19,956 bases of DNA from a virus: the IMG/VR virus record IMGVR_UViG_3300045988_162015; one strand, written 5' to 3'. A program made the translations under genes and the position numbers. The notes under the pieces are model-generated. The model was given only the letters and a program-made list of their open reading frames with translations, ran no database searches and was not told the origin of the DNA. Below, in pieces: positions 7,370 to 19,956 of the stretch. The number at the start of each line of letters is the position of its first letter. Within the stretch, counting starts at the first letter, position 1.

Positions 7370-7936
7370 TTAACCTTCTTTTACAACATTATAACGAGGA
7401 GCAGTTCTACGACCAGGAGGCGTTGTGGGCTTAGTTTCAGTCTTCACTCTACGTTCAGGAGCTTTTGGAGTAATCTGTTCATCCTCCGCAGCTTCAGCTT
7501 CCTTATTAGCTAATGCTCTATCAAGGTCAAATCCAGTTTTATCTTTAAGAGCTTTACGCTTATTGTAATCACTCATAGGAAGAGATACAGCATAACTCTT
7601 AATCATATCAATAACTCCAATAGGAGCAAAATCAAGGCAGTCAAGGAATTCATCAAGAGTTCCTTCAGTAAGAAGCTTAATAACTCCAGCATCATCTAAA
7701 TAATATTCAGGTTCTGTATGAATACCTAATTCTTCTGTAGTTTCAGTATCCACAATCTTTAAGAAATTTTCCATTAAAGTGCGGCCTCCGCTAAGATAGG
7801 CAAGTTTCTCTAATTCCTCAAAAGGAATTTTCTTAGTTTCTCCAGGTGTAAATTCTCTGCGGATACCTTCTTCAGGAATAGTATAAACAACCATTCCAGC
7901 ACTTCTATTAGTAACTAATAAAATTTTTTTAACCAT
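7370..7936 (-). CDS. Hypothetical head-associated protein of 188 aa with no in-frame TAG.
   Basis: The likely true start is the ATG at 7934-7936 (MVKKILLVTNRSAG...), with AAAGGAGAAT upstream, rather than the track's 7993. Stop is TAA at 7370. A hairpin terminator lies upstream. Confidence 0.6.
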   Translation of the reverse strand: MVKKILLVTNRSAGMVVYTIPEEGIRREFTPGETKKIPFEELEKLAYLSGGRTLMENFLKIVDTETTEELGIHTEPEYYLDDAGVIKLLTEGTLDEFLDCLDFAPIGVIDMIKSYAVSLPMSDYNKRKALKDKTGFDLDRALANKEAEAAEDEQITPKAPERRVKTETKPTTPPGRRTAPRYNVVKEG

Positions 7937-7967
7937 TTTTTTTATTCTCCTTTTACTCATAAAACAA

Positions 7968-8003
7968 AATAGGGGAGAAGGGGATTTCCCCATTCTCCCC
8001 TAA
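7968..8003 (-). terminator. Hairpin terminator after the capsid gene (GGGGAGAA...TTCTCCCC with inner GGGGA/TCCCC) plus a U-rich tail.
   Basis: aggggagaaggggatttccccattctcccc. Confidence 0.55.
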
Positions 8004-8036
8004 AAATATTATATATTAATTTTTAGTTAATATCAA

Positions 8037-9173
8037 TTACGGCTTATCTTCATTACCGCCATCAATAGTATCATGAGAACCAGTAATCTGACCAGCATAG
8101 TCACGGACCTTACCAGTTACGCCATCAAGATGCCATGTCTTCATATCACCAAGAAGTTCAGTATCACAATAGCAGCAGATGTTATTAGCTAACATAGCAA
8201 TAACGCCAACTTTCTTATAAACCTGAATTTCACGACTACGATCATAATTGGTATATTCATCAACAATGGTATTGCCTTCCATAGCAACCTTTACAGGCTT
8301 ACTATCAGCACCAGTAGGAATAATCCAAGCATAACCTGGGTCAATGACTTTCTTTTCATTAGTAGCATCTTCAAAGCCCTGCTCAAGAATAACAACTTTA
8401 TAGCCCTTATAGGAAGCAAGACGGCCAGTATTCCAAAGCTCATTTTTCATAGCTTCAGTATAACGCCAAGCATCCTTCGGAATCATACGAACAGCAAATT
8501 CATAAGTGCAATAAATAGTAGGAGTACCATAAGCAGAAGCAATCATAAGTAACTTATCAAAACCGGGTTCATCAAAACCATTAGCAACTAAACGGTTAGC
8601 AGGAGGTAACTGGTTAACAGAAGCCTTTAAAGCACCGGCAATTTCTTTATAGATAAGTTCATCCATACCTTCCATGACGATCTGGGTAACAACACCAAAA
8701 TCGACACGGCCATCAAGGAATTCCTCAAAGCCAATTTGAGCAGCTCCGCCGATAGCGCTTGTGCGGACTTCAAAGCTTTCTTCAGTCTTACCAAGCTTGA
8801 ATACTTCATAGATACCAGCTAGGCCGACACGAGTGATGAATTGCTTTGCGCGAGTATTGTTGCTGAACTTTCTACGGAAAATAGGCTTGTCACCCTGTTT
8901 AAACGTCTTAACTTCAGCAAACTGATTATATTGCTCTTCAACTTTCTTAGGAAGAACTTCATCAATAGTTTCCTCAATCATCGAGAAAATAAGGTTCTTA
9001 TTATCACGATATAAAGAATAAGTTCCAGCAAGTTCATTTAATTCTCTGCGGAGAGTTTCATTAAGAGCATCATAAGAAAGGCTTTCGCCATTAAAGCTGT
9101 AAGCAGTAGGAGTAGAAGGATCAGCCTTAGCGACAGTCTTCATTAATTGAACAAGATTTTTTCTATCTAACAT
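8037..9173 (-). CDS. Major capsid protein candidate of 378 aa, free of TAG codons.
   Basis: An intact track ORF with an AAAGGAGAGAAG SD. It lies between the scaffold-like gene and a strong terminator. Size and sequence style resemble HK97/T7-fold coat proteins. Confidence 0.6.
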   Translation of the reverse strand: MLDRKNLVQLMKTVAKADPSTPTAYSFNGESLSYDALNETLRRELNELAGTYSLYRDNKNLIFSMIEETIDEVLPKKVEEQYNQFAEVKTFKQGDKPIFRRKFSNNTRAKQFITRVGLAGIYEVFKLGKTEESFEVRTSAIGGAAQIGFEEFLDGRVDFGVVTQIVMEGMDELIYKEIAGALKASVNQLPPANRLVANGFDEPGFDKLLMIASAYGTPTIYCTYEFAVRMIPKDAWRYTEAMKNELWNTGRLASYKGYKVVILEQGFEDATNEKKVIDPGYAWIIPTGADSKPVKVAMEGNTIVDEYTNYDRSREIQVYKKVGVIAMLANNICCYCDTELLGDMKTWHLDGVTGKVRDYAGQITGSHDTIDGGNEDKP

Positions 9174-9190
9174 TTTTCTTCTCTCCTTTC

Positions 9191-9967
9191 TTACGCGATT
9201 CGCATAATCTTAACGCCCTTCTGATGATCAGGCATTTCATAAACCTTGACAACCTACCATTGGATAGAGCCATCACCAGATTTAGAAAGCATACCATCAG
9301 CAGCACGAGGACTTAAAACATCGCCAACTACAAGAGTAGCTTCGGCAATAGTATTAGTCGTAAAAATATCACCAACGTTGGTCTTGAAAACACGAGGAAC
9401 CATATTAGTGCCAGCAGGCATTCTACGGGCCTCATAAGGACCATCAAAATGTAAAGGATCTTCTTCATAGAAGAGTTCACGAATATCAGGACCAGCAGTG
9501 ACATCATCATACTCATAAGTATGTTGTACACCCTGACTATCTGTAATAGTCATAGAAGTATTACCTTCGGCATCCTTGCCGTTTAAATAGCGAGCCTGAC
9601 GTGTACCAATTTCCTGCTTGCCATCATAGGGGCTGTAATAACGAGCCTGATAATCATCTTTGCGCATAGCAAATTCGCAATCAGCTTGTTCCTCACGATA
9701 AAGTTTAATTTCATTATAAACTAACATCCATTCGCCCTTGCCAGTGAAATCAACTTCACCAAGCTCACCAGCAGCATAGTCATACTTAACAAACTGGCCA
9801 TTTTCAAGAAGCTGGATATTTCTGTTAGCAGGTAATTGAGCATAAATCTGACCAGTGCGTTGAGCACTTAAATGATTAGGCTCAACCTGACCATAGCCAT
9901 ATTCAACGTAGCCGCCCTTAACAGCAGATACGCCGCTTAGGTCTTTAAGCATATCTTTTAAAAGCAT
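9191..9967 (-). CDS. Hypothetical head protein. Track ORF 9254..9967 (237 aa) would gain a 20-aa extension if TAG 9254-9256 is read through, ending at TAA 9191-9193.
   Basis: ATG at 9967 follows AAGGAGG. After TAG the same frame reads QVVKVYEMPDHQKGVKIMRIA, then TAA. Confidence 0.5.
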
Positions 9968-9991
9968 TAGGTTTTCCTCCTTAAAAATTTA

Positions 9992-11557
9992 TTATTCCAT
10001 AGTTTTCGCAACATCCTATACTGCCTTAATCCAAGCAGGAATGCTATCGTCATTTACATCATTATTAATATTATATGTAAGTGGGTCATTTTCTTTCTTT
10101 TCATTAGTATCGAAATTGACCTTATTGCGAACACAGATAATAGAAAGCTTTGCTTCAATATCATCTAATGAATAAGTATCAATATTAGCAACAACATCTT
10201 TCTTATCATCATCAGATAACATATAGAAACTATTAATCATTTCTTGTTTCTTTTCTCTTTCAGCCTCAGTCTTAAACTGAGTTAAAGAAGCAAGTTCTTG
10301 TTCGAGTTGTGTTTGCTTTTCAACTAATTCATTATATTTAGTTTCAAGCGCGGCGTACTCGTCTTTTAATAAACCATATTCAACTATATCTTCCAAAGAG
10401 TACTTAGCTTTCTTTTTCTTTTTTTTCTCTTCGTCATCCTCAGTTGGTTCTTCTTCTTCATCAGAAGTATCAGTTGGTTTATTTTCGGGAGTGTCCTTCT
10501 TTTCATCATCTTTTGGCTGATCTTTAGAAGGATCTTCCTTATTATTATCATTATTCTCTTTATTGTCTTTATCTTTTTCGTCCTTTTTTTTCTTCGCAAA
10601 TTCTGCGACTTTTTCAGGATCGAATTGAGGATTATCAGAAACAGAATAATCAGTTAATTCAGAAACTTCACCAGGAGTGAAAGTATCATTCTCCATAGAA
10701 AAATCTAAACGAACGAACTTATCATCTTCCTTGACAATAGCAAATAAATTACCATTGTCTTCGCAAACTTCTTCAATCATTGCATTACCTGCTCCGAAGC
10801 CCTTAATGTAAGAATAAAGAGAAGTCCAAATGGAATCACCAATCTCCACACTATATCTTGTGAACACTTTTGTTCCTCCTTTACCTTCTAATAATTCTTT
10901 TAAATCTTTCATCATAGAGAATAATTGCTCATTAAATTTATCACTAAATGAGAAATGCATCGTAGGAGCAGTAATATTAGCTCCTTCAAAACAAGGTTCA
11001 CAATCTTCTCCAAGAATACAAAGTTTCTTAATTATTGCTTCATTTATAATAAAAAATTCGGGCATTCCATTCTTATCTTTCGACCAATACGCATTAATTT
11101 TTTCATCATCTAATTCCATAGATTGATTATTACCTTTTTCAATAATACGTTTACTTTCTGGATAGATATCTGTCCAGATATAGCCTTCAGTCATTAAATA
11201 TTCATGCTCGTTTTTTCCATCATCTAAAAATTTCTAAAACCATACTTTGGCTCCCAAGTCTACAAAACCATAAGGAACAGTAGTATCTTTAATATCAAAT
11301 TTACCATTAGAAATATCAATAATACGATTATGTTCTTCATAATCCCCATTGACTTCATTAAAATAACCAACGATAGGACTACCTGGTAAACTTTGCGCTA
11401 AATCTTTAGCAACTTCTTTTGTTATAACACTTCTATTGCGATTTGGTTTATCACCAACATAACAAACTTTAATCTAACATTTAGAAATTAAAGGATTGAT
11501 TTTAGTGATATTAATAAACTCAACAGGAGTATCTAACTTAACACTTGTATGTCTCAC
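9992..11557 (-). CDS. Prohead protease/scaffolding-like protein of 521 aa. It has a GTG start, a long D/E/K low-complexity coiled-coil C-terminal half, and 3 in-frame TAGs.
   Basis: GTG at 11555-11557 sits 7 nt after AAGGAGG. The frame is continuous into track ORF 10016..11194 through TAG 11474 and 11234, then through TAG 10016 to a TAA TAA double stop at 9992. The N-terminal region is globular. The C-terminal part is KKKKDEKDKDNKENNDNNKEDPSKDQPKDDEKKDTPENKPTDTSDEEEEPTEDDEEKKKKKK plus coiled coil. Confidence 0.5.
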
Positions 11558-16704: not shown

Positions 16705-17769
16705 TTAGGATTTCATTTTTTCTTTACGAGAACTATTTCGGCATTTTTTACATATACTATAAAATCCATCTTTACTTGTTTTGTTATAGGAAAAATATTT
16801 ATTGTGAGCTAATTTAATTTGCCCACATCGACTGCATTTTTTATATTTGCCTTTTTCTTGAGTTGTATAATACCACTCTAAATATTTATCAACAGCTTTA
16901 TCGGCAATAAGTTTTGGTATTTTATTGCGGAATAAACTTGATATATATTCTAAACTGTGGGTAATATTAAATTCTTCTTGTAAAATTTTTTGAATCTCTA
17001 TATTTTGTAATCCATCAATTTTACATTCTACAATACGCATTAACATAGGATAATCAGCCAAAGCTTCATCACAAATATTTTCAAAATCATAGATAAGATA
17101 CCAAGTATCATCTTCAAAACGGTCCCAACTATCTTCTTTTAACCGAGAATAATTGCATAAGATGCAAGAGCAAATTTCAGGGTTCATCAATGAGACGCCT
17201 TCTGGAATTGGATATCCATCATCATCAAATATTTTTACATCTTCATCTAATTTAATTTTATATTTGGACCGTGTAAGCTTTACTGGTACTATTGGCTTCC
17301 GATAAGCATTTTTAATAACATATTGGTCTTTACGCATTTCTATTAATGCTTTTTTTATAGTGAAAGCATCTTTACCACTCACTACTTTCATTTTTGCTTC
17401 CCAAGTTGTAATAGCGTCTTTTAATTGTTTTAAGCTCGGAATTTCTTCTAAATCTTTTTTTGTAATTGTAACTTTTGGCTAAAATATCATATTTTTATCA
17501 CTATTAATTAAATTATATATACCATCTTCACCATTCTCTAACTGGGAAACAAGTCCTTCGAAAGAAGTTTCACGTTTATTAACTGTCATTAATCTATTAT
17601 CAGTTAATATTTTCTTTTCTTTTTTTTCTTGTTTCTCCATACATAGAATTAGATAATCTGCAAGAATTTCTAAATACTTTTCATTAGGATTTGGATTTTC
17701 TTCTAAGATTTTTTTTACTAATTCATTTCTTTCTTCAGGAGTTTCAAGAGTATAATCTAATTTTATCAA
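16705..17769 (-). CDS. Zinc-ribbon protein. Track ORFs 17479..17826 and 16705..17391 are in the same frame and separated only by TAG 17479-17481, so they are probably one ~355-aa product; two separate genes remains possible.
   Basis: Likely TTG start at 17767-17769 with GGAGG 8 nt upstream. The C-terminal motif CSRCGQIK...DGFYSICKKC is paralogous to the motif in the downstream gene. Stop is TAA at 16705. Confidence 0.45.
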
Positions 17770-17797: not shown

Positions 17798-17826
17798 ATT
17801 ATAACACAAAAAATTTGTAAAGTCAA
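17798..17826 (-). promoter_or_regulatory. Consensus promoter on the minus strand (TTGACT-17-TGnTATAAT) heading the packaging/structural gene array.
   Basis: The reverse complement reads ttgactttacaaattttttgtgttataat. Confidence 0.55.
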
Positions 17827-17880
17827 CCATGGCCAAAAATTTTTATGACATTTGGTAAAAAAATTATATAAAATGTAAAA

Positions 17881-17909
17881 TTGACAATTATAGAAAATTT
17901 TTGTATAAT
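17881..17909 (+). promoter_or_regulatory. Consensus promoter on the plus strand (TTGACA-17-TATAAT) driving the 17939 gene.
   Basis: ttgacaattatagaaaatttttgtataat. Confidence 0.6.
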
Positions 17910-17938
17910 ATTTATATAAAATTAAAGGAGATAATTTT

Positions 17939-18094
17939 ATGAGAAAACCTCGTGGTATTTTAGGTAGTATGGCTTCTAAAGCTAAACGTAGAGCAACTAA
18001 TAGTGCAACTAGAGCTGTTTATCAGCTTATGTGGGGCGAAAACCCTAAACAGCAAGGAGCCTATAATCCTACCAAAGAGCGTAAGAAAAAGTAA
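17939..18094 (+). CDS. Small basic protein of 51 aa: MRKPRGILGSMASKAKRRATNSATRAVYQLMWGENPKQQGAYNPTKERKKK.
   Basis: ATG sits 9 nt after AAAGGAGAT and a consensus promoter lies upstream. It is below the track's 60-aa cutoff. Stop is TAA. Confidence 0.5.
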   Translation: MRKPRGILGSMASKAKRRATNSATRAVYQLMWGENPKQQGAYNPTKERKKK

Positions 18095-18129
18095 ATATAT
18101 TATATTTAAAAATTGAAGGAAGTGATTTA

Positions 18130-18567
18130 ATGAAGTTTGTCCATGGGCTTCTTTTAGGTAGTGGTGCGGTACTTGGATTAGGATGTGCGGCCAGATTTAT
18201 TTATGGTAAAATTATTGAAGCAAAAATCTATAAAGATTATACTGAAGCCCTTGAAGATTTTATGAATTTTAAAAGCGATAAAAAATATATTGAATATAAT
18301 AAAGGGCTAGAAGAAAAATATATTGGGCCTGGAATAGTTCATGTCATTAAAAATAAAAAAGATTTAATGTCTATTGATGTATCTAAATATGAAGGAGAGG
18401 GTGATCCAATTGGCATTACTCTTGGTTCTAAAATTGTAGATAAAGAAGACCAATATATTATACCTGAAGTAGAAGTTTATAAATTTAAAAATGGATATAC
18501 TAATTATCGATTCCATCAAGAACGAGGAGTAATTGACCCTGATGAAGGTATTATTCCTTTTGATTAA
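18130..18567 (+). CDS. Membrane-anchored or secreted protein of 145 aa with a hydrophobic N-terminus (GLLLGSGAVLGLGCAARFIYG).
   Basis: Track ORF with a GAAGGAAG SD. Stop is TAA. Confidence 0.55.
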   Translation: MKFVHGLLLGSGAVLGLGCAARFIYGKIIEAKIYKDYTEALEDFMNFKSDKKYIEYNKGLEEKYIGPGIVHVIKNKKDLMSIDVSKYEGEGDPIGITLGSKIVDKEDQYIIPEVEVYKFKNGYTNYRFHQERGVIDPDEGIIPFD

Positions 18568-18596
18568 TTGACAAAGCACAAAAAATTTTGTAAAAT
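18568..18596 (+). promoter_or_regulatory. Promoter on the plus strand (TTGACA-17-TAAAAT) for the AbrB-like gene.
   Basis: ttgacaaagcacaaaaaattttgtaaaat. The -35 hexamer abuts the TAA of the upstream gene. Confidence 0.5.
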
Positions 18597-18657
18597 AAGT
18601 TATGAAATCTGTGGGATGGCTCGCACTCTCCCAATTAAAAAGAAAGGAGTGAGTTGA

Positions 18658-18858
18658 ATGCTGAAAACAGCTTATACAAGAAAACTCGATACAGTTGGAC
18701 GTTTAATGATTCCTTCTAAACTTCGTGAAGAATTGCATATGGTAAATGGTCATAATTATGAATTTTATATTGACGAAGTAGATGGTAAGACTTTTTTATG
18801 TATTGAATGTCCTGAAGCTAGTGATGCCGTAGCTCTTGCGAAAGAAACATTGGAATAG
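18658..18858 (+). CDS. AbrB/MazE/SpoVT-fold (swapped-hairpin) DNA-binding protein of 66 aa. The stop is TAG; read-through would add QNGYRVIKE and end at TAA 18886-18888.
   Basis: RKLDTVGRLMIPSKLREEL matches the AbrB-N/MazE signature. An AAAGGAGTGAG SD, a promoter at 18568-18596 and a terminator just downstream are present. Confidence 0.6.
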   Translation: MLKTAYTRKLDTVGRLMIPSKLREELHMVNGHNYEFYIDEVDGKTFLCIECPEASDAVALAKETLE

Positions 18859-18889
18859 AATGGATATCGAGTAATTAAGGAATAAAATT

Positions 18890-18921
18890 AAAGCGGGAAA
18901 TTATTTTCCCGCTATTTTTTT
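18890..18921 (+). terminator. Rho-independent terminator (AGCGGGAAA-ttat-TTTCCCGCT plus T9).
   Basis: aaagcgggaaattattttcccgctattttttttt. Confidence 0.65.
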
Positions 18922-18942
18922 TTATAAATTTATTCCGTATTC

Positions 18943-19008
18943 TGAAATTAAAAATGAGTTTAGAAATTATGATCGTTATTTGAAATTAAAATTGAGTTTA
19001 GAAATTAT
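18943..19008. repeat. Two 28-nt near-identical direct repeats (one mismatch) spaced 38 nt apart.
   Basis: tgaaattaaaaatgagtttagaaattat and tgaaattaaaattgagtttagaaattat. Confidence 0.7.
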
Positions 19009-19072
19009 TTTGCCAGGTAGGAAGATTTATCCATTTTTTCCATTTTTTTTACACGAAACCCTGCCCCCCCCA

Positions 19073-19124
19073 CTTCATTTGACTAAAGTGTTAAAGTCTA
19101 TTGTCTTGCTTTATTCAAATGAAG
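19073..19124. repeat. Perfect 10-bp inverted repeat (cttcatttga / tcaaatgaag) with a 32-nt spacer, sitting just past a C8 homopolymer at 19053-19063.
   Basis: Read directly from the sequence. Confidence 0.6.
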
Positions 19125-19181
19125 CAAGTTAGATACGACTAACCCCCTAAAAAAATAATTCGATTTTTTCAAAATTAGTTC

Positions 19182-19209
19182 TTGACTTTTTAGAAATAGC
19201 CGCTATAAT
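19182..19209 (+). promoter_or_regulatory. Promoter on the plus strand (TTGACT-16-TATAAT) with an upstream A-tract.
   Basis: agttcttgactttttagaaatagccgctataat. Confidence 0.5.
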
Positions 19210-19293
19210 TAGAATCAGAAAGTGACCCACGGGACAACGCAAAGCAAGCCGCAAGGCAAGCGAAAAAAAGTCAAGAAAAAATGAAAAAAGTTC

Positions 19294-19322
19294 TTGACAA
19301 ACGAAATCGCGTGTGGTACAAT
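19294..19322 (+). promoter_or_regulatory. Promoter on the plus strand (TTGACA-17-TGgTACAAT, extended -10) with an A-rich UP-like element.
   Basis: aaaaaagtcaagaaaaaatgaaaaaagttcttgacaaacgaaatcgcgtgtggtacaat. Confidence 0.55.
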
Positions 19323-19403
19323 TCAAAATGTCAAGAGGACAACGACAAAACATAGCAAGTTCTCTTGTGTGACGTAAAATGACCGGCAAACGCGGATAGC
19401 ACC

Positions 19404-19494
19404 GAACCGCCTGCACCTTGACAAGTGAATCTAAGCCGAACGCCTGCACCGTACAGCGGACGCGATGGTAGAACATAGCAAGTGCGGTGCAGGC
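19404..19494. repeat. GC-rich repeat cluster in the leader. It has gcctgcacc twice as direct copies, a 10-bp inverted repeat (gcctgcaccg / cggtgcaggc), and acatagcaagt repeated at 19351 and 19473.
   Basis: Read directly from the sequence. Confidence 0.6.
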
Positions 19495-19581
19495 AGTAGG
19501 GCAGTCCAACGCCTACGGCAGACAGCAACACGGACAGCTGACAACTAACAGTCAAATAATATGTAAAGGATTGGTAAAATC

Positions 19582-19956
19582 ATGGTATATGCAATTAAAA
19601 CAAGCGAACAGGACAAACAGAAAGCTATCAAGGCAGAGTTAGCAGAACAGGCACAAGACTTGATAGCATATGTCAAGCAATACCATATTCTAGGCAATAG
19701 CTTCGACTATGATGGTATGCTGGACAAGTATCATGAATATGCGGCGAAGAATATTCAGCAATGGGACAACCTGACATGGGCTATTCATAGTGCTGAATAT
19801 GACTTGGAGCACACGGACTATAACATGGATATGGAAACCGGCAATCCATGTGTCGCATATGAGGCCGCCTACGAGAAGCTGACAGACTTACAGGACGAGG
19901 CCGAGGAATGGGCGGATATCTTTGAACATATGCTCGAAGACTTCTTCTACAAACTG
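19582..19956 (+). CDS. Very acidic hypothetical protein, partial (125 codons, open to the window end). It has GC-richer codon usage and is an anti-restriction or DNA-mimic candidate.
   Basis: ATG at 19582 sits 11 nt after AAAGGA. There is no stop before the window end, so the track omits it. Codons such as GAC, CAG and AAG are favoured, unlike the AT-rich region. It lies downstream of tandem consensus promoters. Confidence 0.5.
   Translation, partial: MVYAIKTSEQDKQKAIKAELAEQAQDLIAYVKQYHILGNSFDYDGMLDKYHEYAAKNIQQWDNLTWAIHSAEYDLEHTDYNMDMETGNPCVAYEAAYEKLTDLQDEAEEWADIFEHMLEDFFYKL

What the first reader, a model, noticed from the sequence alone, without database searches (positions are those of the whole stretch)
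18658..18888. AbrB/MazE-fold regulator is the only gene that stops at TAG; read-through adds 9 residues before a TAA
Outside the recoded module, this gene ends ...AKETLE-TAG, then QNGYRVIKE-TAA, and a terminator follows immediately. If the suppressor activity is temporal, the regulator would be made in two lengths across the infection. That would be a simple timing device for a transcription factor.
Basis: inference. Interest (0 to 1): 0.55.

Follow-up and report, generated by a model that had tools for sequence, protein, structure and literature searches.

The report
Sense TAG inside phage AbrB-like regulator
The TAG near the end of this small phage DNA-binding regulator is most likely an ordinary glutamine codon of a stop-codon-recoded gut phage, and the nine residues after it are the protein's conserved native C-terminus, not a read-through add-on.

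Summary
The sequence is as described. An AbrB-type gene (18658-18885) has TAG at codon 67, then NGYRVIKE, TAA and an intrinsic terminator.

The claim that it stops at TAG fails:
- A sister clade of the same recoded phage group has CAG (Gln) at that codon. Two other clades keep TAG.
- Variation in the eight tail codons is almost all synonymous.
- About 40 of the 50 closest cluster representatives carry the same C-terminal G-[YFM]-x-[VI] element. G69 is at least 90% conserved in 47 selected homologues.
- The terminator follows the TAA in every clade.
- TAG is 37% of Gln codons in the window's late genes.
- Three other window genes also have a TAG within 0-21 codons of their TAA.

So the 75-aa protein is the real product and TAG is a synonymous Gln codon.

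The two-lengths timing idea is neither refuted nor supported. The gene has a conserved host-type promoter and borders a TAG-poor block, so a 66-aa form could appear before suppression starts. But the CAG clade does without the TAG, and TAG retention matches ordinary late-gene turnover. No suppressor tRNA was found in about 85 kb of a relative. The finding is ordinary, of low interest.

The parts
18568..18596 (+). Sigma-70/sigma-A type promoter of the AbrB-like gene (TTGACA, 17 nt spacer, TAAAAT)
   Evidence: The scan scores it 11 of 12. Both hexamers are conserved or near-invariant in all three clades aligned (TTGACA; TAAAAT or TATAAT).
18613..18632 (+). Conserved 5'-UTR element GGGA-TGGCTCGCACTC-TCCC. 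It can form a hairpin. It also contains an ATG at 18616 that opens a mini-ORF (MARTLP...) ending at TGA 18655-18657, directly abutting the AbrB ATG.
   Evidence: It is more conserved than the flanking UTR across clades. GGGA/TCCC becomes GGGAA/TTCCC in the other clades. Its function is unknown and was not tested.
18643..18649 (+). Shine-Dalgarno sequence AAAGGAG, 8 nt upstream of the ATG
   Evidence: Read directly from the sequence. Invariant in the alignment.
18658..18885 (+). Full coding sequence of the 75-aa AbrB-type protein: 66 codons, a sense TAG read as Gln, 8 codons, then TAA
   Evidence: Orthologues of 75-77 aa carry ..LEQNGY[KRS]VIKE. The AbrB N-domain homology has E 1.6e-10. R8, R15 and R23 are invariant in the family alignment.
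18856..18858 (+). In-frame TAG at codon 67, read as glutamine
   Evidence: L001-L006 and L019 have CAG at the aligned codon. L007-L018, L020 and L021 have TAG. Several remote homologues have Q at this position.
18859..18882 (+). Conserved C-terminal tail NGYRVIKE, the family-wide G-[YFM]-x-[VI] element
   Evidence: Codon variants are synonymous at N68, G69, Y70, V72, K74 and E75. The only non-synonymous changes are R71 to K or S and E75 to D. G69 is at least 90% conserved in 47 selected homologues.
18892..18923 (+). Intrinsic terminator: a 9-bp stem AGCGGGAAA/TTTCCCGCT followed by nine T
   Evidence: Found by the scan. L018 keeps the pairing through compensatory changes (GGCGAGAAT/ATTCTCGCC). 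In the 77-aa clades the stem GGAGCAAGA/TCTTGCTCC overlaps the last codons, so the unit ends at the long-form stop in every clade.

Best explanation
The gene is a self-contained unit (promoter, leader, coding sequence, terminator) for a 75-residue AbrB-type DNA-binding protein of an uncultured, low-GC gut phage of roughly 105-190 kb that reads TAG as glutamine. Codon 67 is one of the phage's ordinary TAG Gln codons. It probably arose from, or interconverts with, CAG by a single transition.

The functional product is the full-length protein. It has an N-terminal swapped-hairpin DNA-binding domain at about residues 1-50, a helix at 56-67, and a conserved C-terminal G-Y-x-V element. By analogy with the AbrB C-terminal domain, that last element is inferred to help oligomerisation.

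Shown: the gene anatomy, the AbrB homology, the TAG/CAG equivalence, purifying selection on the tail, and the family-wide motif. Inferred: DNA binding, the role of the tail, and that any 66-residue product made before suppression is established is a by-product and not a designed isoform.
For: 1. Window-wide recoding. The minus-strand genes across the window up to about 17.6-18.0 kb read open only if TAG is sense, and all of them end in TAA. In those late genes 82 of 219 Gln codons are TAG.
2. TAG aligns with Gln codons in orthologues. Between the window and L007 late genes there are 20 TAG/TAG pairs, 20 TAG/CAA pairs and 1 TAG/CAG pair.
3. At the AbrB codon itself, one clade has CAG. Seven loci from that clade were read (L001-L006, L019), and its late genes are also full of TAG. 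The two other clades have TAG.
4. Tail codons vary almost only at synonymous third positions.
5. A HMMER search of 1.8 billion representatives found 221 relatives. About 40 of the 50 closest carry the ...LLExxG[YFM]x[VI] C-terminus. G69 is at least 90% conserved in alignment A2.
6. The terminator sits immediately after the long-form TAA in every clade, with compensatory stem changes.
7. Two other window genes have a TAG near the 3' end followed by a conserved tail.
Against: - The gene borders a + strand block that is strongly TAG-depleted in relatives. TAG makes up 4 of 85, 0 of 39 and 0 of 63 Gln codons there, against 37% in late genes.
- At least one gene in that block uses TAG at a position where its orthologues have TAA or TGA. 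That looks like a true stop (L011 12542-12931).
- The AbrB promoter is a conserved host-type consensus promoter. The mRNA may therefore be present before any suppressor, and a truncated protein would then be made.
- No suppressor tRNA was found in the window or in about 85 kb of a relative's genome. The decoding agent and its timing remain unknown.
- The AF2 monomer model gives the tail only low confidence, pLDDT about 61.
Confidence: 0.75

Rival explanations
1. The mRNA is made from infection onset by host RNA polymerase. Before the suppressor is active, ribosomes stop at UAG and make a 66-residue protein that keeps the DNA-binding barrel but lacks the conserved G-Y-x-V element. Later the 75-residue form is made. 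The change in form, for example in oligomeric state or affinity, would couple transcription control to the code switch.
For: - The host-type consensus promoter is conserved in all clades.
- The neighbouring + block avoids TAG and contains a likely genuine TAG stop. This fits the published but untested early-standard, late-recoded model (bioRxiv 10.1101/2021.08.26.457843; PMC10879173).
- The TAG sits just after the DNA-binding domain and before a conserved element. A truncated product could therefore plausibly fold and differ in function.
- TAG is present in two diverged clades.
Against: - The closely related CAG clade has the same gene neighbourhood without the TAG.
- TAG retention between clades equals the neutral late-gene rate of 20 in 31.
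- Capsid-region genes show the same TAG-near-the-end pattern.
- There is no direct evidence on suppressor timing, and no suppressor was located.
- Most relatives keep the tail, which points to the long form as the selected product.
Confidence: 0.12
2. The gene truly ends at TAG as a standard-code early gene. The 24 nt after it are untranslated and conserved only as part of the 3' UTR and terminator.
For: The + block in relatives can use TAG as a stop. Borges et al. interpreted C-terminal in-frame stops in integrases as legitimate terminators.
Against: - Differences in the 24 nt are third-position synonymous changes, not random ones.
- The sister clade has CAG there.
- The encoded motif G-Y-x-V is shared with relatives that are only 32-55% identical.
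- The terminator stem starts after the TAA, not after the TAG.
Confidence: 0.03
3. The protein is not a transcription regulator of the phage programme. It is the AbrB/MazE-type antitoxin of a toxin-antitoxin pair.
For: The best PHROG hit is phrog_4681, 'antitoxin from a toxin-antitoxin system', at E 1e-7. Foldseek lists MazE among its non-significant top hits.
Against: - The gene is monocistronic, with its own promoter and terminator.
- No toxin-like partner is adjacent. The upstream 145-aa gene has no family hit and the next gene lies 700 nt away.
- The closest solved relatives by sequence are AbrB, SpoVT and Abh.
Confidence: 0.05

Closest known systems
Genetic code 15 (TAG read as Gln) in gut phages infecting standard-code hosts: Lak, crAss-like and the 'gemstone' clades of Borges et al., with proteomic validation by Peters et al. 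(PMC9523058)
   Same: In-frame TAGs are dense in structural genes and scarce in other blocks. TAG is interchangeable with CAA and CAG in orthologues. The genome is low in GC and late genes prefer TAA stops. The relatives' contig sizes of about 105-190 kb, and one locus from the same SRR17470xx run series as the Sapphire representative, make membership of a large Firmicutes-type clade a lead only.
   Different: No suppressor tRNA, release factor or theta ribozyme was found in the 85 kb examined. This lineage has no match in INPHARED phage records. Its structural genes carry SPbeta-type Yon domains.
AbrB / Abh / SpoVT transition-state regulators of Bacillus (N-terminal swapped-hairpin domain)
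   Same: The profile match to the N-domain has E 1.6e-10. The motif RK(L/V)D..GR..IP..(L)R is shared, with R8, R15 and R23 at the same numbering as AbrB.
   Different: The protein is only 75 residues long. The C-terminal part is a short helix plus a G-[YFM]-x-[VI] element, not the roughly 40-residue AbrB C-domain or the SpoVT GAF domain. AbrB's R24 is Glu here. The context is a phage.
Programmed stop-codon read-through that yields an extended isoform (Q-beta A1 protein, MLV Gag-Pol, MDH1x; PMC5133446)
   Different: In those systems the stop codon is conserved and the extension is an add-on. Here the codon is replaced by CAG in a sister clade and the 'extension' is the ancestral end of the domain family.

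Membership tests
AbrB/SpoVT-type swapped-hairpin DNA-binding domain | Significant sequence-profile match to the N-terminal domain | tested here: met
   The A2 profile hits PDB entries 1yfb at E 1.6e-10, 1z0r at 1e-9, SpoVT 2ro5 at 1e-8 and Abh 2fy9 at 4e-8. The single sequence passes only the related Pfam MraZ model, 24.6 bits against a cut-off of 23.
AbrB/SpoVT-type swapped-hairpin DNA-binding domain | Conserved arginines of the DNA-binding face (AbrB R8, R15, R23, R24; recalled from the AbrB literature) | tested here: met
   R15 and R23 are invariant and R8 is at least 90% conserved in 47 homologues. Position 24 is Glu in the window protein, so three of the four are met.
AbrB/SpoVT-type swapped-hairpin DNA-binding domain | Homodimeric interleaved beta-barrel fold | tested here: inconclusive
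   The AF2 monomer model has mean pLDDT 81.7 and the expected strands. Foldseek against PDB found nothing at E below 0.1, although AbrB-type proteins top the list. A dimer could not be modelled with the tools.
AbrB/SpoVT-type swapped-hairpin DNA-binding domain | Sequence-tolerant DNA binding and promoter regulation | not testable with these tools
   Needs EMSA or ChIP.
Code-15 (TAG=Gln) recoded phage gene | In-frame TAG inside an ORF that is otherwise conserved on both sides | tested here: met
Code-15 (TAG=Gln) recoded phage gene | TAG aligned with Gln codons in orthologues | tested here: met
   The sister clade has CAG at the same codon. In late genes there are 21 TAG/CAR pairs against 13 TAG/other pairs.
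Code-15 (TAG=Gln) recoded phage gene | Phage-encoded suppressor tRNA with anticodon CUA | tested here: inconclusive
   None was found in the window, or in positions 48,030-132,859 of the 144,642-bp contig IMGVR_UViG_3300045988_164317, or in the other loci. Rfam also found none. About 60 kb of that genome was not examined.
Programmed read-through / dual-isoform gene | Stop codon conserved at the read-through site | tested here: not met
   TAG is replaced by CAG in L001-L006 and L019.
Programmed read-through / dual-isoform gene | Extension under purifying selection | tested here: met
   This is equally expected for a plain sense codon.
Programmed read-through / dual-isoform gene | Both isoforms detected, each with its own function | not testable with these tools
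   Needs proteomics and genetics.
Type II toxin-antitoxin antitoxin (MazE/AbrB-fold) | Adjacent co-transcribed toxin gene | tested here: not met
   The gene has its own promoter and terminator. The neighbours have no toxin family hit.

The most novel reading that the evidence does not exclude
The TAG at codon 67 acts as a built-in sensor of suppressor activity. Early in infection a 66-residue AbrB-like protein lacking the conserved G-Y-x-V element is made. Once the code switch occurs the full-length form replaces it. The neighbouring sigma-like factor gene (16705-17640, also TAG-containing and driven by a host-type promoter) becomes translatable at the same moment. The phage's transcription programme would then be gated by translation of its own regulators.
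Probability: 0.1. Interest if true: 0.6.

Novelty: new member of a known kind. Interest (0 to 1): 0.2.

Why it matters
Taken at face value, it mainly matters for annotation. In code-15 phages a TAG close to a gene's end should not be read as a stop without checking orthologues. This family of about 75-residue AbrB-like phage proteins would otherwise be truncated by standard-code gene callers.

The wider locus offers a clean test bed for the still untested temporal code-switch model. Host-type promoters drive two regulators, an AbrB-like protein and a sigma-like factor, and both need TAG decoding to be made full-length.

Tried and rejected
- INPHARED phage records gave no match, either by blastn of 17800-19956 or by tblastn of the protein.
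- Rfam gave nothing significant on the window, and nothing at gathering threshold on 129 kb of relatives.
- The suppressor tRNA hunt used six further IMG/VR scans, walking from about -37 kb to +47 kb around the gene. It found no tRNAs except three non-suppressor ones in a distant 44-kb contig, L124.
- The GTDB genome scan with the wide alignments failed for lack of a conserved stretch. With the narrow alignment it found only a phage contig binned into a 'Mollicutes' MAG.
- Foldseek of the monomer model was not significant.
- I tested whether CTA in the GC-rich region 19427-19437 could be an anticodon. It cannot, because CTA is not conserved there (TTA or GTA in relatives).
- I looked for a +4 nucleotide bias after sense TAGs and found none.
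- I tried to decide whether two + block genes in relatives (TAG at codon 206 of 214 and at 555 of 572) stop at TAG. Only near-identical copies were available, so this is undecided.

Full report
**What is in the sequence**

The window has 31.7% GC. Its minus strand, across the window up to about 17.6-18.0 kb, reads as long genes only if TAG is a sense codon. These include a terminase-like gene, a portal-like gene, SPbeta-type YonB/YonD/YonG homologues and a sigma-like factor. Every one of them ends in TAA.

The + strand carries four genes at the right end:
- a 51-aa gene at 17939-18094;
- a 145-aa gene at 18130-18567;
- the gene in question;
- a partial gene starting at 19582.

The gene in question starts at ATG 18658, behind AAAGGAG. 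It has TAG at 18856-18858, then eight codons (NGYRVIKE) and TAA at 18883-18885. A strong intrinsic terminator follows at 18892-18923. An 11-of-12 sigma-70-type promoter sits directly upstream at 18568-18596. The literal observation is therefore correct. The stated end, 18888, is three bases past the stop.

An eight-codon run to the next TAA or TGA is not unusual in this composition. The probability of a stop within nine codons is about 0.42.

**Is it the only gene that stops at TAG?**

No. With TAG read as sense, three other genes have a TAG close to their TAA:
- 1415-2734 has TAG as its very last codon before TAA.
- 9191-9967 has TAG at codon 238 of 258.
- 9992-11194 has TAG at codon 393 of 400.

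For the last two genes the residues after the TAG are conserved in relatives 74-91% identical overall (VVKVYEMPDHQKGVK[IV]MRIA and DVAK[TS]M[EN]). In one of them the TAG aligns with an Arg codon.

**Does the AbrB-like gene stop at TAG?**

- A word-index search found 75-77-aa orthologues that all carry ...LEQNGY[KRS]VIKE.
- Their DNA, from 22 loci in many samples, falls into three clades.
  - The window clade, including the more divergent L018, has TAG.
  - A 77-aa clade (P0005; L007-L012, L020) has TAG.
  - Its close sister clade (P0004; L001-L006, L019) has CAG at exactly that codon.
- The CAG clade is itself TAG-recoded in its late genes. The difference is therefore a synonymous Gln codon choice within one coding system.
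- Across all loci the eight tail codons vary at synonymous third positions: AAT/AAC, GGA/GGG/GGT, TAT/TAC, TCT/TCC, GTA/GTG, AAG/AAA and GAA/GAG. The only amino-acid changes are R71 to K or S and E75 to D.
- The terminator follows the long-form TAA in every clade. L018 keeps the stem through compensatory changes. In the 77-aa clades the stem overlaps the last codons.

**Family-wide evidence**

An exhaustive profile search of 1.8 billion cluster representatives found 221 relatives, 50 of them at E of 1e-10 or better. About 40 of those 50 share the architecture of an AbrB-like barrel, a helix, and ...LLExxG-[YFM]-x-[VI]. About ten end after the barrel or have a different tail.

I aligned 47 members chosen because their match reaches the C-terminus. 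In that set G69, two residues after the TAG, is among the most conserved positions of the whole protein at 90% or more. Several remote members have Gln at position 67.

The family profile matches the N-terminal domains of AbrB (E 1.6e-10), SpoVT and Abh. R8, R15 and R23 are conserved at AbrB's numbering.

The AF2 model (mean pLDDT 81.7) shows strands 2-10, 33-41 and 44-49 and a helix at 56-67. The tail is predicted only at low confidence. Foldseek gave no significant hit for this monomer of an obligate dimer fold.

**Is the TAG special?**

- In the window's late genes TAG supplies 82 of 219 Gln codons, or 37%. It shows no +4 context bias.
- Between window and L007 orthologues, 20 of the 31 window TAGs at conserved Gln positions are still TAG and 11 are CAA. 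This matches the overall 67% codon identity at conserved residues.
- Finding TAG-67 in two clades and CAG in a third is just what neutral synonymous turnover predicts.

**What keeps the timing idea alive**

- The + strand block to the right of the gene is strongly TAG-poor in relatives. TAG is 4 of 85, 0 of 39 and 0 of 63 Gln codons in three loci, and about 5% further along. That block uses both TAA and TGA stops.
- In one relative a gene of that block has TAG exactly where all its orthologues have TAA or TGA. That is an apparently genuine TAG stop (L011 12542-12931).
- This pattern matches the published hypothesis that such phages translate early genes in the host's code and switch later (bioRxiv 10.1101/2021.08.26.457843; PMC10879173). 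TAG to Gln decoding itself has been shown by proteomics in crAss-like phages (PMC9523058).
- The AbrB gene's promoter is a host-type consensus promoter conserved in all clades.

If the mRNA is made before the suppressor accumulates, a 66-residue product would be produced for a while. It would have the barrel and helix but lack the conserved G-Y-x-V element.

I could not determine the timing. No tRNA of any kind was found in the window or in about 85 kb (from -37 to +47 kb) of a 144.6-kb relative.

**Weighing**

The best-supported reading is that the 75-residue protein is the selected product and TAG-67 is an ordinary Gln codon of a code-15 phage (confidence about 0.75).

A designed two-length switch is possible but unsupported (about 0.12). 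The CAG sister clade does without it, retention is neutral-like, and capsid-region genes show the same TAG-near-the-end pattern. That pattern is more simply explained if a TAG costs least near the 3' end of genes that otherwise avoid it.

A true stop at TAG is effectively excluded (about 0.03). A toxin-antitoxin role is unlikely because the gene is monocistronic and has no partner.

**Comparison with what is known**

This is a new, unannotated member of two known kinds:
- AbrB-type phage regulators;
- genes with sense TAG codons in stop-codon-recoded gut phages.

The lineage has no counterpart in INPHARED. One near-identical contig is binned into an 'uncultured Mollicutes' MAG, which is a weak clue to the host.

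Nothing here requires a new mechanism, so interest is low. The main practical lesson is that standard-code gene callers will truncate this family.

Noticed in passing
window 16705-17640 (-), probably extending to a TTG near 17768 behind GGAGGT: The first gene of the minus-strand operon matches PHROG 5767 'sigma factor' (E 1e-46, not confirmed by Pfam) and has a C-terminal CxxC...CxxC zinc finger. It has a host-type consensus promoter (17826..17798) but carries an in-frame TAG at codon 54, with 3-4 TAGs in relatives. A late transcription factor that cannot be translated full-length without TAG decoding is a stronger candidate timing gate than the AbrB tail.
   Followed up: partly
window 19180-19580: A GC-rich (45%), A-rich and T-poor noncoding island lies in a 30% GC genome. 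It holds two tandem consensus promoters (19182-19209 and 19294-19322). A roughly 160-nt block is conserved at 78-90% across clades and contains a long hairpin (CTGCACCG...CGGTGCAG). RNAalifold predicts 34 pairs, one of them compensatory. Rfam gives no hit and it is not a tRNA. The P0005 clade has a different GC-rich sequence in its place. It is probably a structured leader or small RNA ahead of the first + block gene.
   Followed up: partly
window 7370-11194 (-): Four consecutive capsid-region genes include the YonB-like 378-aa and YonD-like 400-aa proteins. They have higher GC (0.32-0.42, three of them 0.36 or more) and no TAG, except single TAGs in the last 8-21 codons of two of them. Their neighbours have 4-12 TAGs each. 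This fits TAG avoidance in highly expressed genes, or a recently acquired unrecoded segment.
   Followed up: partly
window late genes versus + block of L001, L003, L007: All 17 late genes stop at TAA. The + block genes in relatives use TAA and TGA at roughly 60:40. CAG makes up about half of CAA+CAG in the + block but only about 28% in late genes. This fits late-gene TAGs having arisen from CAG.
   Followed up: no
L011 12542-12931; L007 12577-12984 and 19068-19244: In the TAG-poor block of relatives, one gene has TAG where all its orthologues have TAA or TGA, which looks like a genuine TAG stop. Another has an internal TAG joining a 50-aa signal-peptide-like ORF to a downstream domain that other clades encode separately. 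The same codon seems to have two meanings within one genome.
   Followed up: partly
window 18613-18657: A conserved 5'-UTR element GGGA-UGGCUCGCACUC-UCCC could form a hairpin. It also contains an ATG opening a mini-ORF (MARTLP...) that ends at a TGA directly abutting the AbrB ATG. The first six codons are conserved across clades, with synonymous changes. It could be an operator, an mRNA stabiliser or a leader peptide.
   Followed up: no
window 18921-19010: There are two 38-nt direct repeats (TTTAKAAATT...GAAATTAAAAWTGAG) just after the AbrB terminator. The GAAATTAAAAT core recurs downstream of the gene in the other clades. They may be regulator binding sites.
   Followed up: no
L037 10620-20072 (relative, about 10-20 kb left of the window): A single 3150-codon ORF contains 110 in-frame TAGs. 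It is a giant tail or tape-measure-like gene and would be shredded by standard-code annotation.
   Followed up: no
L021 (CAMELE010000019.1, 37.8 kb): A contig about 95% identical to the window is binned in an 'uncultured Mollicutes' MAG in GTDB. It is either a mis-binned phage or a hint at the host lineage.
   Followed up: no
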